Positions 5,255-60,139 of a stretch of 64,000 bases of DNA are shown here, piece by piece (the stretch's first letter is position 1; every line of letters starts with the position of its first letter). The notes beneath the pieces were generated by a model. It had not been told where the DNA came from and did not search any database. It worked only from the letters and a program-made list of their open reading frames with translations. This stretch comes from the human T2T-CHM13v2.0 reference genome, Homo sapiens. The stretch lies in assembly GCF_009914755.1 (NCBI RefSeq), contig NC_060931.1. The stretch is one strand, 5' to 3'. The position numbers and the translations under genes are program-made.

Positions 5255-5970
5255 AAGTCCAAGGTATTTTTAAAGCAAGGAAGGAAAGAAAATGGAAGAT
5301 AAAAAGAATGAACATAAAAGTCTCAAGTTAATTTTTATGTCAGACTTCTGAATGCCCCAAAATGAAACAATTCTGTAAGGCCGGGAGCAGTGGCTCAGGA
5401 CTGTAATCTCAGCACTTGGGGAGGCTGAGGTGGGTGGATCACTTGAGGCCAGGAGTTCAAGACCAGCATGGCCAACATGGTGAAACCCTGTCTCTACTAA
5501 AAATACAAAAATTAGCCAGGCTTGGTGGCATGTGCCTGAAATCCCAGCTACTCAGGAGGCTGAGGAAGGAGAATCGCTTGAACCTGGGAGGTGATGGTTG
5601 CAGTGAGCTGAGATCATACCAGTGCACATCAGCCTGGGTGACAGAACAAGACTCCGTCTCCAAAAACCAAACAAAAAAACAAACAGCCCACAACAATTCT
5701 CTAATGGCGAGGGAGTAAATAAGTGACCGATAATGCTGGAGGAAGAGGAAGTGAATGGGTCCCCAGTATAGGTTAGAATGAAAAAATCCCTACCAATGTA
5801 AATCAAATATAAAATAAACAAAAGAGTTCATGTATGTGTGCGGGAAGGAAAGTGATATTTGGGGGTTGGGAGGTGTTACTGAGGGTACCGAATACATATA
5901 AACAACTCTTTAGTCACTCCCAAAGGTCTGGGATGAGCATTTTTTAACATTTGATACTCTACTAACTTAC

Positions 5971-6066
5971 CAGGACTATGTTGACATGGAAATTCACCTC
6001 CCGTTATCCACAGCTCCTCTCCCTGCTCCAACTTAATGATGACGTTTGGCTTGGTGATATCATATC
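5971..6066 (-). pseudogene. KRAB-B exon, copy 1 (canonical 96 nt; acceptor mutated, only AG gives 95 nt)
   Basis: Encodes YDITKPNVIIKLEQGEELWITGGEFPCQHSP; acceptor reads taacaaG versus taacagG in copy 2; donor G|gtaagt. Confidence 0.88.
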
Positions 6067-6328
6067 TTGTTAATGGGAAAAGAAGAAGGACTTGGGCAAG
6101 TTGCTCGGCTTCAGAATCTCCGAAGTACAAGATGTTGCCACCTCATAAGCTGCATAACAGAAATGCTCCATTTTTTACCTTATCAAAGTTAGAACCTTTC
6201 AATGAAGAATAATATAAACACTGCAGCTAGTGCCCACAAGGAATTAAATGGTGTTGCCACTTATTTCTTCAAACTCAAGCATAAAACCCCATTCAACTGA
6301 GAGCATTCAGAAAGCAAGCTATCCTCAC

Positions 6329-6455
6329 CCAAGGAAACTAGATGGCTGTAGTTCTCCAACATCACATCCCCGTATGTTATCTTCTCATCAGGGTCCAGTT
6401 GCCGCCACTCCTCCTGGGTGAAATCCACAGCCACATCTTTGAATGACACTGGCCC
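6329..6455 (-). CDS. KRAB-A box exon, copy 1 (127 nt)
   Basis: ttacag|GGGCCA...TTG G|gtgag; encodes [42 protein letters not shown]. Confidence 0.92.
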
Positions 6456-7949
6456 CTGTAATGGCAACATGATCAGAATTGGGAGATATGGAAAAGGGAT
6501 AGGGGGATAACATTTTACAAAGCTCACTGGTGAAGTTAACCATGAACATTGTATACCTTATTTTATGTTACAGATTATGGAAGGGAAATCATATTGGAAA
6601 CACATATCCTTTGGGGTCCTTTATATATATACAAAAATAAAAAGCCAAAACACAACTGAGCTCCTATTTTGCAACTGAACTGAGTTTTGGGGATATGAGA
6701 TGAGTGAAACACCATGCCTGCTCTCAGAAAGCAGACAACCTAATAAGGAGATAAACATGTAAACAAACACAAGCATTTTACTTCTTGTCACTTCTTTTAG
6801 TCTTCTTTGCTGCCAGGCGCTCCCCTTCTCCTGGACCTCTTCATGTTGGAGTGCCCACCACTCAGTTCCTGGTCTTCTTCTTCCTAACTCACTGCTCTGG
6901 GGCTCTCACCTAGTTTCAGCTCCTTGTTCTTTTGGCTCTTTTATTCTCATAGCCAGTGGCCTCTGGCTATCTGCATGACTGATTTTATCTCAAACATCTC
7001 AATCTCACAGCAATAAATATTCGTTAAATGAATGAATGCCCAAAGCTGTTATTAGAGTAATGCAGACAAGGTGCAGAATGATTTAACAAAAGAGGATCAA
7101 ATTATTTTAACTTTATGCCATCAGATTAGGCTTCACAGACTCAGTTAACTTGAAGTCCTTAAAGATGAATTGTGTATTCTATGGGATGAAGGGGAGGAAG
7201 AATATGATGAGGTGTAAAAGTACCAATGGCAAACATGAAGCAGCTTCAATTTTTAAGAGGTTGGGGCTGGGCATGGTGGCTCATGCCTATAATCCTAGCA
7301 CTTTGGGAGGACGAGATGGGAAGATCGTTTGAGCTCAGGAGTTCGAGACCAGGTTGGGCAACATAGTAAGAACCTTATCTCTGCTAAAAATAAAATTTTT
7401 TTAAAAAATTGGCTGGGCATCATGGCACATGCCTGTAGTTCCAGCTACTTGGGAGGCTAAGGCAGGAGGATGGCTTGAGCCTGGGAGGTCAAGGCTACAG
7501 TGAGCTGTGAATGCAACACTGCACTCCAGCCTAGGCAACAGAGCGAGACCTTGTCTCAAAAAAAAAAAAAAAAAGAAAAATGCAAAGCTCCTGGGCTCCA
7601 GCAATCCACCTGCCTTGGCCTCCCAAAGTATTGGGATTACAGGCTTGAGCCAGCATGCCCTGCCCAAACTTGCAGTTTAGAAAAAGGAAGTGCCCAGTAA
7701 GCATGTTGCATTATCCTGTTATTTATAAAGAACATATCAACAAGGGGTTCAAACCCAGTGATACAGCTAGGACCATGTAGATCCCAAGAGATAGCAGAGG
7801 CAGAGCTGCTAGGCTGGTGGGCTGAGAAACTAAAGCAGAACATCCAAGCTTATCCACAGGCAGGCCAAAGGAGCTGATAAAATCACCGAGAGAGAGTAAT
7901 AACTTTCTGGGTTAAGTTAGTCCAGAAGGCAAGGAGGTGGTGGGGGTTA

Positions 7950-57241: not shown

Positions 57242-57300
57242 CTGCAATGTGTTCATTTCCTGTTGCTCTTGGAAACATGCAGAGACTGTGGCTGATAGAC
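57242..57300 (-). CDS. KRAB-ZNF-type start exon, copy 2 (ATG at 57256, MNTLQ)
   Basis: cccctctag|GTCTATC...gaaATGAACACATTGCAG|gtgagt; phase 0 matches the KRAB-A exon. Confidence 0.88.
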
Positions 57301-58599
57301 CTAGAGGGGCAGAAGCAGGTCACTGAAGTCATGAGGGCTCCGGCCTGCAAAGGCAGAAATCTCCTGCATTACGAACCACAAAAGAAAGCTCAAATAGGTT
57401 AACACCCTGTGAACACTCAGCTGCAAACACTCAGAAGGGCCTAAAAGAGTGATACAGGGTTTCACCACATTGGCCAGGCTGGTCTCGAATTCTGGCCTCA
57501 AGTGATCCACCTGCCTCGGGCCAACATGGCAAAACCCCGTCTCTACTTAAAAATAGCAAAAAAATTAGCCAGGCATAGTGTCACATGCCTGTAGTCCCAG
57601 CTACTCAGGAGGCTGAGGCACAAGAATCATTTGAATCTGGGAGGTGGAGGTTGCAGTGAGCGGAGACCACGCTGTTGCACTCCAGACTGGGTGAGAGATA
57701 CTGTCTCAAAAAAAAAAAAAAAAAAAAAAAAAAAAGTGATAGGGGAAGCATGCACTTGTAACTTTGTAACTCTAAGATAATCAGATAGTAATTAGGTGAG
57801 TTAAGACTCTCATGGGTAACATGGTCTGCCATCAAGTACAACGTGCAAAAAGAAAAAAATTTCCCATTATACAGCTCATGATTTTTGTGGTTTGTTTGCT
57901 GAGACAGGGTCTCAATCTGCCACCCAGGCTGGAGTGCAGTGGTGCATTCACGGCTCTCTGCAGCCTCGACCTCCTGGGCTCCATCCATCCTCCCACTTCA
58001 GCCTCCTGAGTAGTTAGGACCACAGGTGCATCCCAGCATGCCTGGCTGCTTTTGTATTTTTTGTAGAGTCAGGGTCTCCCTATGTTGCCTAGGCTGGTCT
58101 CTAACTCCTGGTCTCAAGGGATACTCCTGCTCTAGGCCCGCAAAGTGCTGGGATTACAGGTATGAGCCACTGCATCCGGCCCGCGTTTTCTTATTGTCTC
58201 TCTAAACTGCTTAAAATCAAAGAAGCCATAGGAATTGAATATGTGAGCTCTCAGAAATGAAATGAATGTGTATAAAATATGGTTTTGTTTCTAAATTATC
58301 TAACTGAACTTGGTTATTGCTGCACCTAATAATCTTCTATTAAGAAAACTAGGATACGGGAGAAAGAGCACTGGCCTGGGAGATAAGACTCCTGAGTTCT
58401 ACTATGAGTAATTCCATCCACAAAGCCAGTGACCTGGTCAAGTCACCCACCTGCTAAGGCCCAGTCTCTTCCCCTAGCAACTGAGGCAGCAGGAGAGAAT
58501 CCCTGCAGGCTGTTCCTGCATTACTACGATTCTCCCAGGGCAGATCTAAGGGGCGAATCAGCAGACACTTAAATGAGAGAACAGAGGTGCTGAGGGACG

Positions 58600-59640
58600 T
58601 TTAGAGGCGGTCGAAATCTGGAGCACGGAGAGGAGGAGGAAGGGCTGTTAGGGGTTAGCGGGGAGTGGAGACGACGTCCGCAGCTGAGGGTGGTGACACC
58701 CTCCACGCCCCCGTAAGCCTCGTCCTCCCAGATCTTCCCATGCAGCGCCTGTTCCGTGCAGCCGGACCCTGCCCTCGAACCCAAACACACGTCTCTCCTG
58801 CAAGCGATCGGGACCCTCCCCCTGCCCCACACTCAAAGGTCCCCAACACACGGTGACTTCACCCAGGCCCTTCTCGCTCTGGGCCCGAAAATCCCAGACT
58901 TACCCTCCTGGGGCTCCGCAGCCTCTGCCCCCCGGCTCCCGAGAGGCCGGGGCGGGGCTGCTGTCGCTGGCGCGCGCGTCTGCTCGCGAGGTCCCCTCCT
59001 GTCCACCTCACCAAGGCTGTTCTGCTCCCGAGGGGCCCGGGCCGGGCCTACGGGGCAAATCCAGGCGGGTGTCCTTCTGGGGGCCCAGATCCGCCTCCCT
59101 GGGGCTCACCATACAGCGACGGCCTAGTCTAGGCCGCCAAGGACACATACGGGCCAGGCCCGGGTCCCGCCGCCCCTTCGCCTCCGCCGCCACTTCGCCT
59201 CCGCCGCCACCTCAGCCGACTCCCTCCCGGCCCCTCTGGCCCCAGCGCCGCCGACTCCGGGGCTCACGCTCCGGGGTCCCCGCTTGAGCCTCCACCCGGC
59301 CCGCGCGAACCCTGGTCTGCACAGCTCCGCGTCCGCCTAGGTGCTGGCCCGGGCGGTCAGCATCCAGCCCCGCAGGCTATGCGATGCTCGTCCACTGCAG
59401 GCCAAACCCTAGGAACGAGAGCAAGCGGCGACCTGAAGACTCACAGGAAGCGAGGGCAGTGCGGCGGCAGCGCGCATGCCCGAACACGCACGCCGGGAGA
59501 GGTGCACACGCGCAGGAGTGCACCGGAAGTCCGCCTCCCAGGGCCCACTGCTGGTCTCCGGACAAGTACTGGACTCTATTTCCCATGAGCCTATGCGCCT
59601 CACAAGTTTAGGGGCGGTTTTAAATGTCTCTACCCCGCCT
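58600..59640 (-). promoter_or_regulatory. CpG-island promoter/exon 1 of the KRAB-PMS2 locus (exon 1 donor at 58904)
   Basis: CpG-dense; donor CAGGAGG|gtaagt; NRF1-like GCGCATGCCCG at 59472-59482; ETS/GABP CCGGAAGT at 59523-59530; ZNF143-like ACTCTATTTCCCATGAGCC at 59573-59591. Confidence 0.85.
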
Positions 59641-60139
59641 AGAGGATAAGAAACTCCAGGCTATGAGCTTTGGCAGCCCTGAACACCGGACTGAACTTCA
59701 CGTTTGTCTTTACTCCCTTTTAGTCCAGGGCTGCCTTACTGGGTCCTGGAGCCCAAGTCCTCTGGGTTAGAACCGAGTTTCCCATAAGGAGAAGGAAAGG
59801 AAAGGGTGTCTCTTGGTCACTGCGCTGAAATGCTAAGAGAAGTTTCACTCAAATACTAGGACAGGATAAATGCCCAGCGATGCTTTCCAAGGAACAAAAA
59901 GAAAAAAGAACTTGTAGCCGGGCGCGGTGGCTCACGCCTGTAATCCCAGCACTTTGGGAGGCCGAGGCGGGCGGATTGCGAGGTCAAGAGATAGAGACCA
60001 TCCTGGCCAACATGATGAAACCCTGTCTCTACTAAAAATACAAAATTTAGCTGGGCTAAATTCGAGTTCTCTCGAATTCCACTTTTGCTCAGTTTTTCTT
60101 TGTCAGCACTCATTGTCAGGAGTGTTTAAGTGCTGTACC

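What the first reader, a model, noticed from the sequence alone, without database searches (positions are those of the whole stretch)
5543..60056. A portable 'promoter + KRAB' cassette grafted onto unrelated genes
Seen: the same ~13-kb module (CpG promoter with NRF1/ETS/ZNF143-like sites, start exon, KRAB-A, KRAB-B, no zinc fingers) occurs twice. Copy B is joined to PMS2 exon 2; copy A continues into unrelated sequence. The two outputs differ: in-frame fusion versus frameshifted uORF. Recalled: the KRAB resembles ZNF12-family KRABs from 7p22, near PMS2. Inference: segmental duplication is using a truncated KRAB-ZNF 5' half as a reusable promoter/repressor-domain donor, with splice-site micro-changes setting the output of each copy.
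Basis: partly seen in the sequence, partly recalled or inferred. Interest (0 to 1): 0.75.

Follow-up and report, generated by a model that had tools for sequence, protein, structure and literature searches.

The report
RBAK promoter cassette reused by duplications
Two copies of the front end of the zinc-finger gene RBAK, spread by primate segmental duplication, now serve as start sites for POM121C and for the PMS2P3 pseudogene; both cases are already in print, so this is a clear but largely known example of promoter capture.

Summary
The repeat is real. Window 5390-18187 and 46455-60056 are direct copies, 95.3% identical at aligned bases. Each has a CpG-island promoter, exon 1, an ATG exon, a KRAB-A exon and a KRAB-B exon. 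The window holds no zinc fingers.

The parent is the KRAB zinc-finger gene at chr7:5.16-5.18 Mb, which Franks et al. 2016 name RBAK. It is not ZNF12.

Copy A is the published sPom121 leader. A lost KRAB-B acceptor (AG to AA) turns the KRAB frame into a short uORF.

Copy B was joined to PMS2 intron 1 by a crossover inside an Alu. The KRAB-PMS2 frame is open (168 aa) only with an acceptor 5 nt inside PMS2 exon 2. RefSeq's junction is out of frame. Buljan et al. 2010 already listed PMS2L3 as a KRAB gene that gained PMS2's HATPase_c domain.

A and B come from one capture out of RBAK that was then re-duplicated (tree 100/100). They are not two separate grafts.

All seven RBAK-derived promoter copies plus the parent keep CpG islands. 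The KRAB exons and B's PMS2 exons change at the intron rate. What is reused is therefore the promoter and leader, not the repressor domain.

Additions here: further copies upstream of PRKRIP1 and of a PMS2 3'-half copy.

The parts
3909..36244 (-). Full extent of copy A's homology to the parent 7p22.1 locus (chr7:5146507-5177298); it includes the SPDYE5 gene on the + strand
   Evidence: colinear blastn pieces, 84-94% identity
5390..18187 (-). Copy A of the shared module (5' end of POM121C)
17149..17900 (-). Copy A exon 1 (17149-17584) plus CpG-island promoter. ETS core at 17647-17654. NRF1-like palindrome with one mismatch just upstream of exon 1.
   Evidence: hub annotation
15482..15584 (-). 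Copy A ATG exon (an alternative POM121C exon), holding the ancestral RBAK start codon
6329..6455 (-). Copy A KRAB-A exon, 127 nt
   Evidence: Pfam KRAB 83.8 bits
5971..6149 (-). Copy A extended KRAB-B exon. The ancestral 96-nt exon is 5971-6066. Its acceptor at 6067-6068 reads AA instead of AG, so a cryptic acceptor 83 nt upstream is used, giving a frameshift and a stop. The Franks sPom121 siRNA target lies at 6086-6104.
46459..60055 (-). Copy B of the module (5' end of PMS2P3), matching chr7:5163059-5176155 of the parent locus
58904..59800 (-). Copy B exon 1 (58904-59462) plus CpG-island promoter. ETS core at 59523-59530.
57242..57300 (-). Copy B ATG exon
47428..47554 (-). Copy B KRAB-A exon, 127 nt
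   Evidence: Pfam KRAB 82.3 bits
47051..47161 (-). Copy B KRAB-B exon, 111 nt. The canonical acceptor is kept. Insertions of +1 and +14 nt scramble about 10 codons and then restore the frame.
   Evidence: the exon with 40-nt flanks is 191 of 191 identical to the 7q22 copy
46443..46750 (-). Antisense Alu holding the RBAK/PMS2 junction; the crossover lies at about 46599-46631
   Evidence: four-way alignment; both parents match across this Alu
45978..46117 (-). PMS2 exon 2. The RefSeq acceptor at 46117 is out of frame with KRAB. A second AG gives an acceptor at 46112 that is in frame.
42262..44008 (-). PMS2 exons 3 (43922-44008), 4 (43642-43754, lengthened by 10 nt through a new AG) and 5 (42262-42445)
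60055..60056 (.). Upstream edge of copy B. An Alu is cut mid-element and followed by sequence that is single copy apart from interspersed repeats.

Best explanation
Both copies are the 5' half of RBAK: promoter, exon 1, ATG exon, KRAB-A, KRAB-B and part of intron 4. This piece was carried out of 7p22.1 once by a segmental duplication of at least 31 kb and then re-duplicated within the chromosome 7 low-copy repeats.

It works as a captured CpG-island promoter with ready-made donor splice sites. Transcripts start at the RBAK-type start site, run through the old RBAK exons and splice to the first downstream exon that has an acceptor.

In copy A (POM121C) this gives the published sPom121 leader. 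Loss of the KRAB-B acceptor turned the KRAB frame into a short uORF.

In copy B, a crossover between an Alu in RBAK intron 4 and an Alu in PMS2 intron 1 placed PMS2 exons 2-5 behind the cassette. The result is PMS2P3, a transcribed pseudogene whose KRAB-PMS2 frame is open only in a minor splice form.

Shown here: the homology, the junctions, the splice and frame states, the single origin of A and B, CpG-island retention in every copy, and neutral-rate change in the coding exons. Taken from print: promoter activity and sPom121 function. Inferred: copy B's product has no protein function.
For: Parent locus:
- Searches find a chr7:5.16-5.18 Mb locus about 94% identical over the module.
- It has 13 C2H2 fingers 4.7 kb beyond the end of the duplication.
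- Franks 2016 names RBAK as the source of the sPom121 5' UTR and says the duplication donated a functional promoter (PMC4888837, passages).
- Their siRNA target matches window 6086-6104 exactly.

Single origin of A and B:
- The tree of the promoter-side 3777 columns splits {parent, 7p22 copy} from {B, POM121C, POM121, 7q22 copy, 77.8-Mb copy} at 100/100.
- Three KRAB-A substitutions are shared by all 7q copies, while ZNF12 agrees with the parent at those sites.
- The 7q22 copy is B-like in its 3' half yet shares copy A's junction beyond the end of RBAK homology.

Alu junction.

Promoter kept: CpG o/e is 0.68-0.79 in all seven derived copies and 0.71 in the parent, against 0.17-0.26 in the intron. 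The ETS core is conserved in all copies.

Coding not kept:
- KRAB exons vary at 18 of 223 columns against 217 of 2606 elsewhere, p = 1.0.
- Changes specific to the B lineage in the PMS2 exons are 7 of 514 against 33 of 4923 in introns, p = 0.10.
- The frame is broken or conditional in both copies.

Buljan 2010 describes PMS2L3 as a KRAB-family gene that gained HATPase_c from PMS2 by segmental duplication and exon joining, with an NMD caveat (PMC2926785, one passage).
Against: Some features would fit a retained protein in copy B:
- The two KRAB-B insertions sum to 15 nt and restore the frame.
- KRAB-A still scores 82 bits against Pfam.
- PMS2 exons 2-5 stay open for 171 codons when spliced canonically.
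- B-to-PMS2 exon divergence is lower than intron divergence: 24 of 514 against 372 of 4950, p = 0.016. One search places that deficit on the PMS2/stem branch, not on the B lineage.

Limits of the evidence:
- The neutrality tests rest on few sites: 223 and 514 exon columns.
- No expression, methylation or ape-genome data could be examined here.
- The name RBAK for the parent locus comes from the paper and from its position, not from an annotation call.
Confidence: 0.85

Rival explanations
1. Copy B makes a working protein: a KRAB repressor domain fused to the first ~84 residues of PMS2, kept by selection. This is the 'repressor-domain donor' half of the reader's idea.
For: - A 168-aa ORF exists with the 46112 acceptor.
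- The frameshift in KRAB-B is compensated.
- The KRAB-A exon scores 82.3 bits against Pfam.
- An Ensembl transcript with KRAB plus HATPase_c is cited by Buljan 2010.
Against: - RefSeq's junction at 46117 is out of frame, and the gene is typed as a transcribed pseudogene (hub annotation).
- KRAB exons evolve at the intron rate.
- B-lineage PMS2 exons are not slower than introns.
- The N-terminal half of KRAB-B is scrambled, and a conserved Arg in KRAB-A is Gly in all 7q copies.
- The ORF ends in exon 4 because of a new upstream AG, which leaves only a fragment of the ATPase fold.
- Buljan notes that the transcript is an NMD target.
Confidence: 0.07
2. A and B are two independent grafts taken separately from RBAK, meaning the parent repeatedly donates its 5' half.
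For: - In the promoter-side 4 kb, B is about as far from the parent (path 0.062) as from the other 7q copies (0.060-0.066).
- An independent RBAK 5' copy does exist at 7p22, next to a PMS2 3' half.
Against: - The 100/100 split places B with all other 7q copies against the parent and the 7p22 copy.
- Overall identity is 95.3% for B-A against 94.1% for B-parent.
- Derived KRAB-A substitutions are shared.
- The B-like 7q22 copy shares A's downstream junction.
Confidence: 0.05
3. The similarity is an old paralogy between neighbouring KRAB zinc-finger genes (the ZNF12 family) rather than a recent duplication of one gene's 5' end.
For: The ZNF12 locus matches the KRAB-A exon at 86-88% and about 900 nt of the promoter at 80-85%.
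Against: The introns align throughout at about 94% to the RBAK locus over 13 kb. ZNF12 aligns only at the promoter, the KRAB-A exon and the finger exon.
Confidence: 0.01

Closest known systems
sPom121 alternative promoter and 5' UTR derived from RBAK (Franks et al. 2016, Genes Dev, PMC4888837; passages read)
   Same: Copy A is this element. It shows the same RBAK-derived exons upstream of POM121C, and the paper's siRNA target matches window 6086-6104 exactly. As the paper states, the RBAK frame is not conserved.
   Different: In the passages I read, the paper does not mention PMS2, and 'pms2' occurs 0 times in its main text. It also gives no splice-site cause. Here the cause is the AG to AA change at the KRAB-B acceptor, shared by POM121, POM121C and the 77.93-Mb copy.
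PMS2L3 (PMS2P3) as a domain-gain example: a KRAB-family gene that gained HATPase_c from PMS2 (Buljan, Frankish and Bateman 2010, Genome Biol, PMC2926785; one supplementary-figure legend read)
   Same: Copy B is this gene. It is a KRAB N-terminus joined to PMS2 exons after segmental duplication, and the paper notes the NMD caveat.
   Different: The paper names neither RBAK nor POM121; both occur 0 times in its main text. It treats the KRAB gene as the recipient. Here the KRAB part is itself a duplicated RBAK fragment, the join is a crossover inside an Alu, and the fused frame needs an acceptor 5 nt inside exon 2.
Chimeric genes and captured promoters made by incomplete segmental duplication. 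POMZP3, HYDIN2 and USP6 are recalled examples, not checked here.
   Same: A truncated duplicate supplies a promoter and first exons to foreign downstream exons.
   Different: Here one donor fragment sits at seven derived places on chromosome 7, with at least two different transcribed partners in this window alone.
Canonical KRAB zinc-finger repressors (RBAK, ZNF12)
   Same: The promoter architecture, the ATG exon, the 127-nt KRAB-A exon and the KRAB-B exon match.
   Different: There is no finger exon in the window, so no DNA-binding module. The KRAB frame is broken in A and partly scrambled in B.

Membership tests
KRAB box (Pfam PF01352) | Match to the KRAB profile above the gathering score | tested here: met
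   83.8 bits (A) and 82.3 bits (B) against a cut-off of 20.4, covering profile positions 1-41 of 42.
KRAB zinc-finger gene | A C2H2 finger array downstream of the KRAB exons in the same transcription unit | tested here: not met
   0 C2H2 motifs in six frames of the 64-kb window. The parent locus has 13 strict motifs, which serves as a positive control.
RBAK 5' duplicon (source of the sPom121 leader, Franks 2016) | Colinear homology, introns included, to the RBAK promoter through intron 4 | tested here: met
   A and B are each about 94% identical to chr7:5163059-5176155 over about 13 kb.
RBAK 5' duplicon (source of the sPom121 leader, Franks 2016) | Carries the published sPom121 exon-3 siRNA target inside an exon | tested here: met
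   exact match at 6086-6104, inside POM121C exon 5971-6149. In copy B the site has one mismatch and is intronic, so the feature is met for A only.
RBAK 5' duplicon (source of the sPom121 leader, Franks 2016) | Active promoter (RACE start sites, H3K4me3) | not testable with these tools
   Shown in print for the POM121 loci. Here there is only indirect evidence: the CpG island is retained and RefSeq transcripts start there.
PMS2 5' pseudogene family (PMS2P) | Colinear copy of PMS2 intron 1 through exon 5 | tested here: met
   window 46703-40840 matches chr7:6124402-6118488 at 90-93%. It is 98.3% identical to the unfused copy at chr7:68.51 Mb.
Functional MutL-type ATPase | A complete GHKL ATPase and MutL C-terminal domain in one frame | tested here: not met
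   Only exons 2-5 are present. Exon 2 scores 19.7 bits for HATPase_c_3, below the cut-off of 25. MutL_C is found only at chr7:6.10 and 6.86 Mb.
Segmental duplication | At least 1 kb at 90% identity or more, not an interspersed repeat | tested here: met
   12.8 to 13.6 kb at 90-94%; all copies lie on chromosome 7.

The most novel reading that the evidence does not exclude
RBAK's CpG-island 5' end may be a recurrent promoter donor. It would have been captured at least twice independently: once for the 7q lineage and once beside a PMS2 3'-half copy at 7p22. It now sits at seven derived places, ahead of four different downstream units: POM121 and POM121C, PMS2 exons 2-5, a PMS2 3' half, and the region upstream of PRKRIP1. 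Every copy keeps an intact CpG island, which would mean all are live germline promoters. On this reading the B-type cassette, with its frame-restored KRAB, still yields some KRAB-PMS2 protein.
Probability: 0.2. Interest if true: 0.45.

Novelty: new member of a known kind. Interest (0 to 1): 0.3.

Why it matters
The finding links two published observations that were never joined: sPom121's RBAK-derived leader, and PMS2L3's KRAB-plus-PMS2 fusion. Both come from one duplicon. It also gives the mechanism for each output, namely an acceptor loss in one copy and an Alu crossover plus a frame mismatch in the other.

It is a clean worked example of a general point. What survives when a gene's 5' half is duplicated is the CpG-island promoter and its donor splice sites, not the protein domain.

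There are practical consequences. Reads, siRNAs and CRISPRi guides aimed at the RBAK, POM121 or PMS2P3 5' ends can cross-hit up to eight loci. The two direct copies lie about 41 kb apart at 95% identity, which makes them a possible substrate for deletion or duplication of SPDYE5 and PMS2P3.

The finding does not open a new kind of biology.

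Tried and rejected
- ZNF12 as parent: rejected. It matches only the KRAB-A exon (86-88%), about 900 nt of promoter and the finger exon.
- Strict NRF1, ZNF143, SP1, YY1 and other consensus scans of both promoters: only the ETS core was found in both copies, plus one SP1 site in B. The alignment then showed the NRF1 palindrome with one mismatch in each window copy.
- Pfam on the KRAB-B exons and on PMS2 exons 3 and 5: no family.
- The first Pfam call had a frame slip and was corrected.
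- Partner of the 77.8-Mb promoter-only copy: not resolved. RBAK homology stops at a 230-nt high-copy repeat followed by 1.5 kb that is 99% identical to chr1:83.02 Mb, and it does not resume within 10 kb.
- PRKRIP1 as a partner of the 7q22 copy: only proximity is shown. The exon lies 22 kb downstream on the same strand, and a second CpG-island-like stretch lies 2.7 kb before it. PRKRIP1 probably has its own promoter.
- Dating the fusion: B's two halves are 98.7% and 98.3% identical to unfused copies. That suggests a late join, but gene conversion could give the same picture, so no date is claimed.
- dN/dS on KRAB-A: there are too few changes (9 variable of 127 columns) for more than the exon-versus-intron comparison.
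- Print searches: POM121 + KRAB (18 papers); PMS2 + KRAB + 7q11.23 (2); RBAK + PMS2 (10); PMS2P3 and its synonyms (64); PMS2CL + promoter + first exon; RBAK, segmental duplication, PRKRIP1, SPDYE (32). Judging from the listings plus the three papers whose passages I read (Franks, Buljan, PMC9599501), none links RBAK to PMS2P3, to the PMS2 3'-half copy or to PRKRIP1. Subscription papers on the PMS2-related genes and the Williams-region repeats are outside the searched library.

Full report

A blastn comparison of window 1-22000 with 38001-64000 gives five colinear pieces. They join 5390-18187 (copy A) to 46455-60056 (copy B) in the same orientation, at 90.3-94.0% identity including gaps. In a five-copy MAFFT alignment of 14142 columns, A and B are 95.3% identical at aligned bases.

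Both copies are read on the minus strand. Each carries the same exons with AG/GT borders:
- Exon 1 in a CpG island: GC 0.67, CpG o/e 0.72 (A) and 0.75 (B).
- A short exon ending in the start codon.
- A 127-nt KRAB-A exon. Pfam KRAB scores 83.8 and 82.3 bits against a cut-off of 20.4.
- A KRAB-B exon.

The window has no C2H2 finger motif in any frame: 0 strict and 0 loose.

On the promoter motifs, the ETS core CCGGAAGT is exact about 60 nt upstream of exon 1 in both copies. The NRF1 palindrome is exact in the parent and in ZNF12 but carries one mismatch in A and a different one in B. 'ZNF143-like' is no more than a loose resemblance.

**The parent is RBAK**

The window's own genome could be searched. 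The KRAB region has six near-full matches, all on chromosome 7:
- itself;
- chr7:103.69 Mb (98%);
- 74.12 Mb (93%);
- copy A (92%);
- 5.175 Mb (92%);
- 77.93 Mb (92%).

The next best match is the ZNF12 side of 7p22, at 86% and over the KRAB-A exon only.

The 5.16-5.18 Mb locus aligns through the introns at about 94%. It carries 13 C2H2 fingers on the same strand, 4.7 kb beyond the point where the duplication ends.

Franks et al. 2016 (PMC4888837, passages read) state three things:
- The sPom121 5' UTR arose when four RBAK exons were duplicated in a hominoid ancestor.
- This duplication donated a functional promoter, shown by RACE and H3K4me3.
- The RBAK frame is not conserved at the new locus.

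Their siRNA target matches window 6086-6104 exactly, inside POM121C exon 5971-6149. Copy A is therefore their element. The name RBAK for the 5.17-Mb locus rests on that paper and on position. PMC9599501 lists RBAK and ZNF12 among PMS2's neighbours. No annotation call names the locus.

**The 13 kb is only the overlap**

Copy A's homology to the parent locus runs from window 36244 down to 3909, matching chr7:5146507-5177298. That is about 32 kb and includes the whole of SPDYE5.

Copy B is cut at both ends. At 60055 an Alu is truncated mid-element. The sequence beyond it is single copy apart from interspersed repeats, so this is the edge of the duplicated block, facing HIP1.

At the other end the join to PMS2 lies inside an antisense Alu (about 46443-46750). 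Upstream of about 46631, B follows the RBAK-type Alu. Downstream of about 46599 it follows the Alu of PMS2 intron 1.

PMS2 itself and 12 other PMS2 5' fragments match from window 46703 downward and lack the RBAK part. The RBAK-type copies match down to about 46455 (in which 40 of 6261 candidates were scored). The fusion is therefore an Alu-Alu crossover between RBAK intron 4 and PMS2 intron 1.

**One capture, then re-duplication**

On the promoter-side 3777 columns, the tree splits the parent plus a 7p22 copy from all five 7q copies at 100/100. Within the 7q group, B is sister to a tight group of POM121, POM121C, the 7q22 copy and the 77.8-Mb copy.

In KRAB-A, three substitutions are shared by every 7q copy, while ZNF12 agrees with the parent at those sites.

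The 7q22 copy is a mosaic:
- It is 97-99% identical to copy A over the first 9 kb.
- It is 98-99% identical to B over the last 5 kb (tree).
- Its KRAB-B exon region is 191 of 191 identical to B's.
- It still has the rest of RBAK intron 4 and the same downstream junction as copy A.

So it preserves the unfused state of the B lineage. A and B are therefore not separate grafts from the parent.

**Outputs**

In POM121, POM121C and the 77.93-Mb copy, the KRAB-B acceptor reads AA instead of AG. A cryptic acceptor 83 nt upstream, present in every copy, is used instead. The frame shifts and stops.

The result in copy A is a 73-aa uORF when the ATG exon is included. In the selected POM121C transcript, which skips that exon, it is a 37-aa uORF.

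B and the 7q22 copy keep the acceptor. They carry insertions of +1 and +14 nt that scramble about ten codons and then restore the frame.

RBAK exon 4 ends one base into a codon, whereas PMS2 exon 1 ends two bases into one. So RefSeq's junction at 46117 is out of frame and gives a 109-aa ORF. The second AG, 5 nt further in (46112), gives a 168-aa KRAB-PMS2 ORF. That AG is ancestral in PMS2.

This ORF ends early because a C to G change created a new AG 10 nt upstream of exon 4.

Buljan et al. 2010 (PMC2926785, one supplementary-figure legend read) already list PMS2L3 as a KRAB-family gene that gained HATPase_c from PMS2 by segmental duplication and exon joining. They note that the transcript looks like an NMD target.

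**What is conserved**

All seven derived promoter copies, and the parent, keep a CpG island. CpG o/e is 0.68-0.79 with 66-80 CpGs per 900 nt, against 0.17-0.26 in the shared intron. This is what one expects of promoters that stay unmethylated in the germ line.

The coding parts show no such care:
- KRAB-A and KRAB-B vary at 18 of 223 columns, against 217 of 2606 in the surrounding sequence (p = 1.0).
- B's PMS2 exons differ from PMS2 at 24 of 514 sites, against 372 of 4950 in introns (p = 0.016).
- Polarising with two other PMS2 fragments places that deficit on the PMS2/stem branch: 9 of 514 against 197 of 4923, p = 0.007.
- Changes specific to B are 7 of 514 in exons against 33 of 4923 in introns, p = 0.10.

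These tests rest on few sites.

**Mechanism**

The reused part is a CpG-island promoter with a set of donor splice sites. Transcripts that start there splice to the first downstream exon with an acceptor.

A gene's own first exon has no acceptor. This follows from established knowledge of splicing. It explains why sPom121 skips the TM-coding first exon of POM121 (Franks), and why PMS2 exon 2 is the first PMS2 exon used in PMS2P3.

The KRAB box rides along as a leader or uORF. That copy B's product has no protein function is my inference.

**Other copies**

- A 9.1-kb copy (promoter, exon 1, ATG exon) at chr7:6844008-6853113 groups with the parent. Within a few bases of its end it abuts PMS2 intragenic sequence in the same orientation. 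This is followed by 2 kb at 96% to PMS2 and a MutL_C exon at 6860808. From recall, this is the PMS2CL locus. It looks like a second, independent RBAK-5'/PMS2 chimera.
- The 7q22 copy lies 22 kb upstream of the genome's only DUF1168 (PRKRIP1-type) exon, on the same strand. A CpG-island-like stretch sits 2.7 kb before that exon, so only proximity is shown.
- The 77.8-Mb copy stops after the ATG exon at an inserted repeat.

**Novelty**

Copy A's story is in print (Franks 2016). So is copy B's KRAB-PMS2 fusion (Buljan 2010).

Six further searches turned up no paper that ties RBAK to PMS2P3, to the PMS2 3'-half copy or to PRKRIP1. I judged this from the listings and from the three papers whose passages I read. 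Older subscription papers on the PMS2-related genes are outside the searched library.

The additions made here are:
- the common RBAK origin of A and B;
- the Alu junction;
- the splice-level causes of the two outputs;
- the copy census;
- the contrast between promoter retention and coding decay.

This is a further member of a known kind and of modest interest.

Noticed in passing
window 22429-36244 (SPDYE5) and chr7:5146507-5158518: The whole SPDYE5 gene lies inside the stretch homologous to the region upstream of the RBAK locus (84-92% identity). The head-to-head SPDYE/RBAK-promoter arrangement is therefore shared with 7p22.1. Which locus held the SPDYE copy first was not worked out.
   Followed up: partly
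L027/L028: chr7:6844008-6853113, then 6853116 onward: An independent copy of the RBAK promoter, exon 1 and ATG exon directly abuts a copy of the PMS2 3' half in the same orientation, with a MutL_C exon at 6860808. From recall this is PMS2CL. I found no paper saying its 5' end is RBAK-derived.
   Followed up: partly
L012-L014: chr7:103674001-103696000: This 7q22 RBAK cassette is a mosaic, like POM121C for 9 kb and then like PMS2P3 for 5 kb. It lies 22 kb upstream of the PRKRIP1-type exon. I recall an annotated readthrough locus there but did not verify it.
   Followed up: partly
L029/L030: chr7:77832017-77833800: The 77.8-Mb promoter copy ends at a 230-nt high-copy repeat followed by 1.5 kb that is 99% identical to chr1:83.02 Mb. 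This looks like a 5'-truncated retroelement insertion carrying transduced flank.
   Followed up: no
window 43744-43754: A C to G change creates a new AG 10 nt upstream of the PMS2 exon-4 acceptor. RefSeq's PMS2P3 exon uses it (113 nt instead of 103 nt), which shifts the frame.
   Followed up: yes
window 58904-59462 compared with 17149-17584: Exon 1 of copy B is 559 nt against 436 nt in copy A. Copy A lacks about 117 nt of GC-rich sequence that the other copies have.
   Followed up: no
chr7:76502718-76643521 and 74237077-74293928: PMS2 intron-1/exon-2 fragments recur at an even spacing of about 28.0 kb, six in a row just upstream of this window and three in a row near POM121. This indicates tandem arrays of a 28-kb unit in this assembly.
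   Followed up: no
window 5390-18187 and 46455-60056: The two copies are direct repeats of about 13 kb at 95% identity, about 41 kb apart. They are a possible substrate for unequal crossover that would remove or duplicate SPDYE5 and the body of PMS2P3.
   Followed up: no
L034: chr7:68512001-68520000: The PMS2 half of PMS2P3 is 98.3% identical to an unfused PMS2 fragment at 68.5 Mb, but only 92.7% identical to PMS2 itself. The RBAK half is 98-99% identical to the 7q22 copy. The join may therefore be much younger than the duplicons, or gene conversion has been at work.
   Followed up: partly
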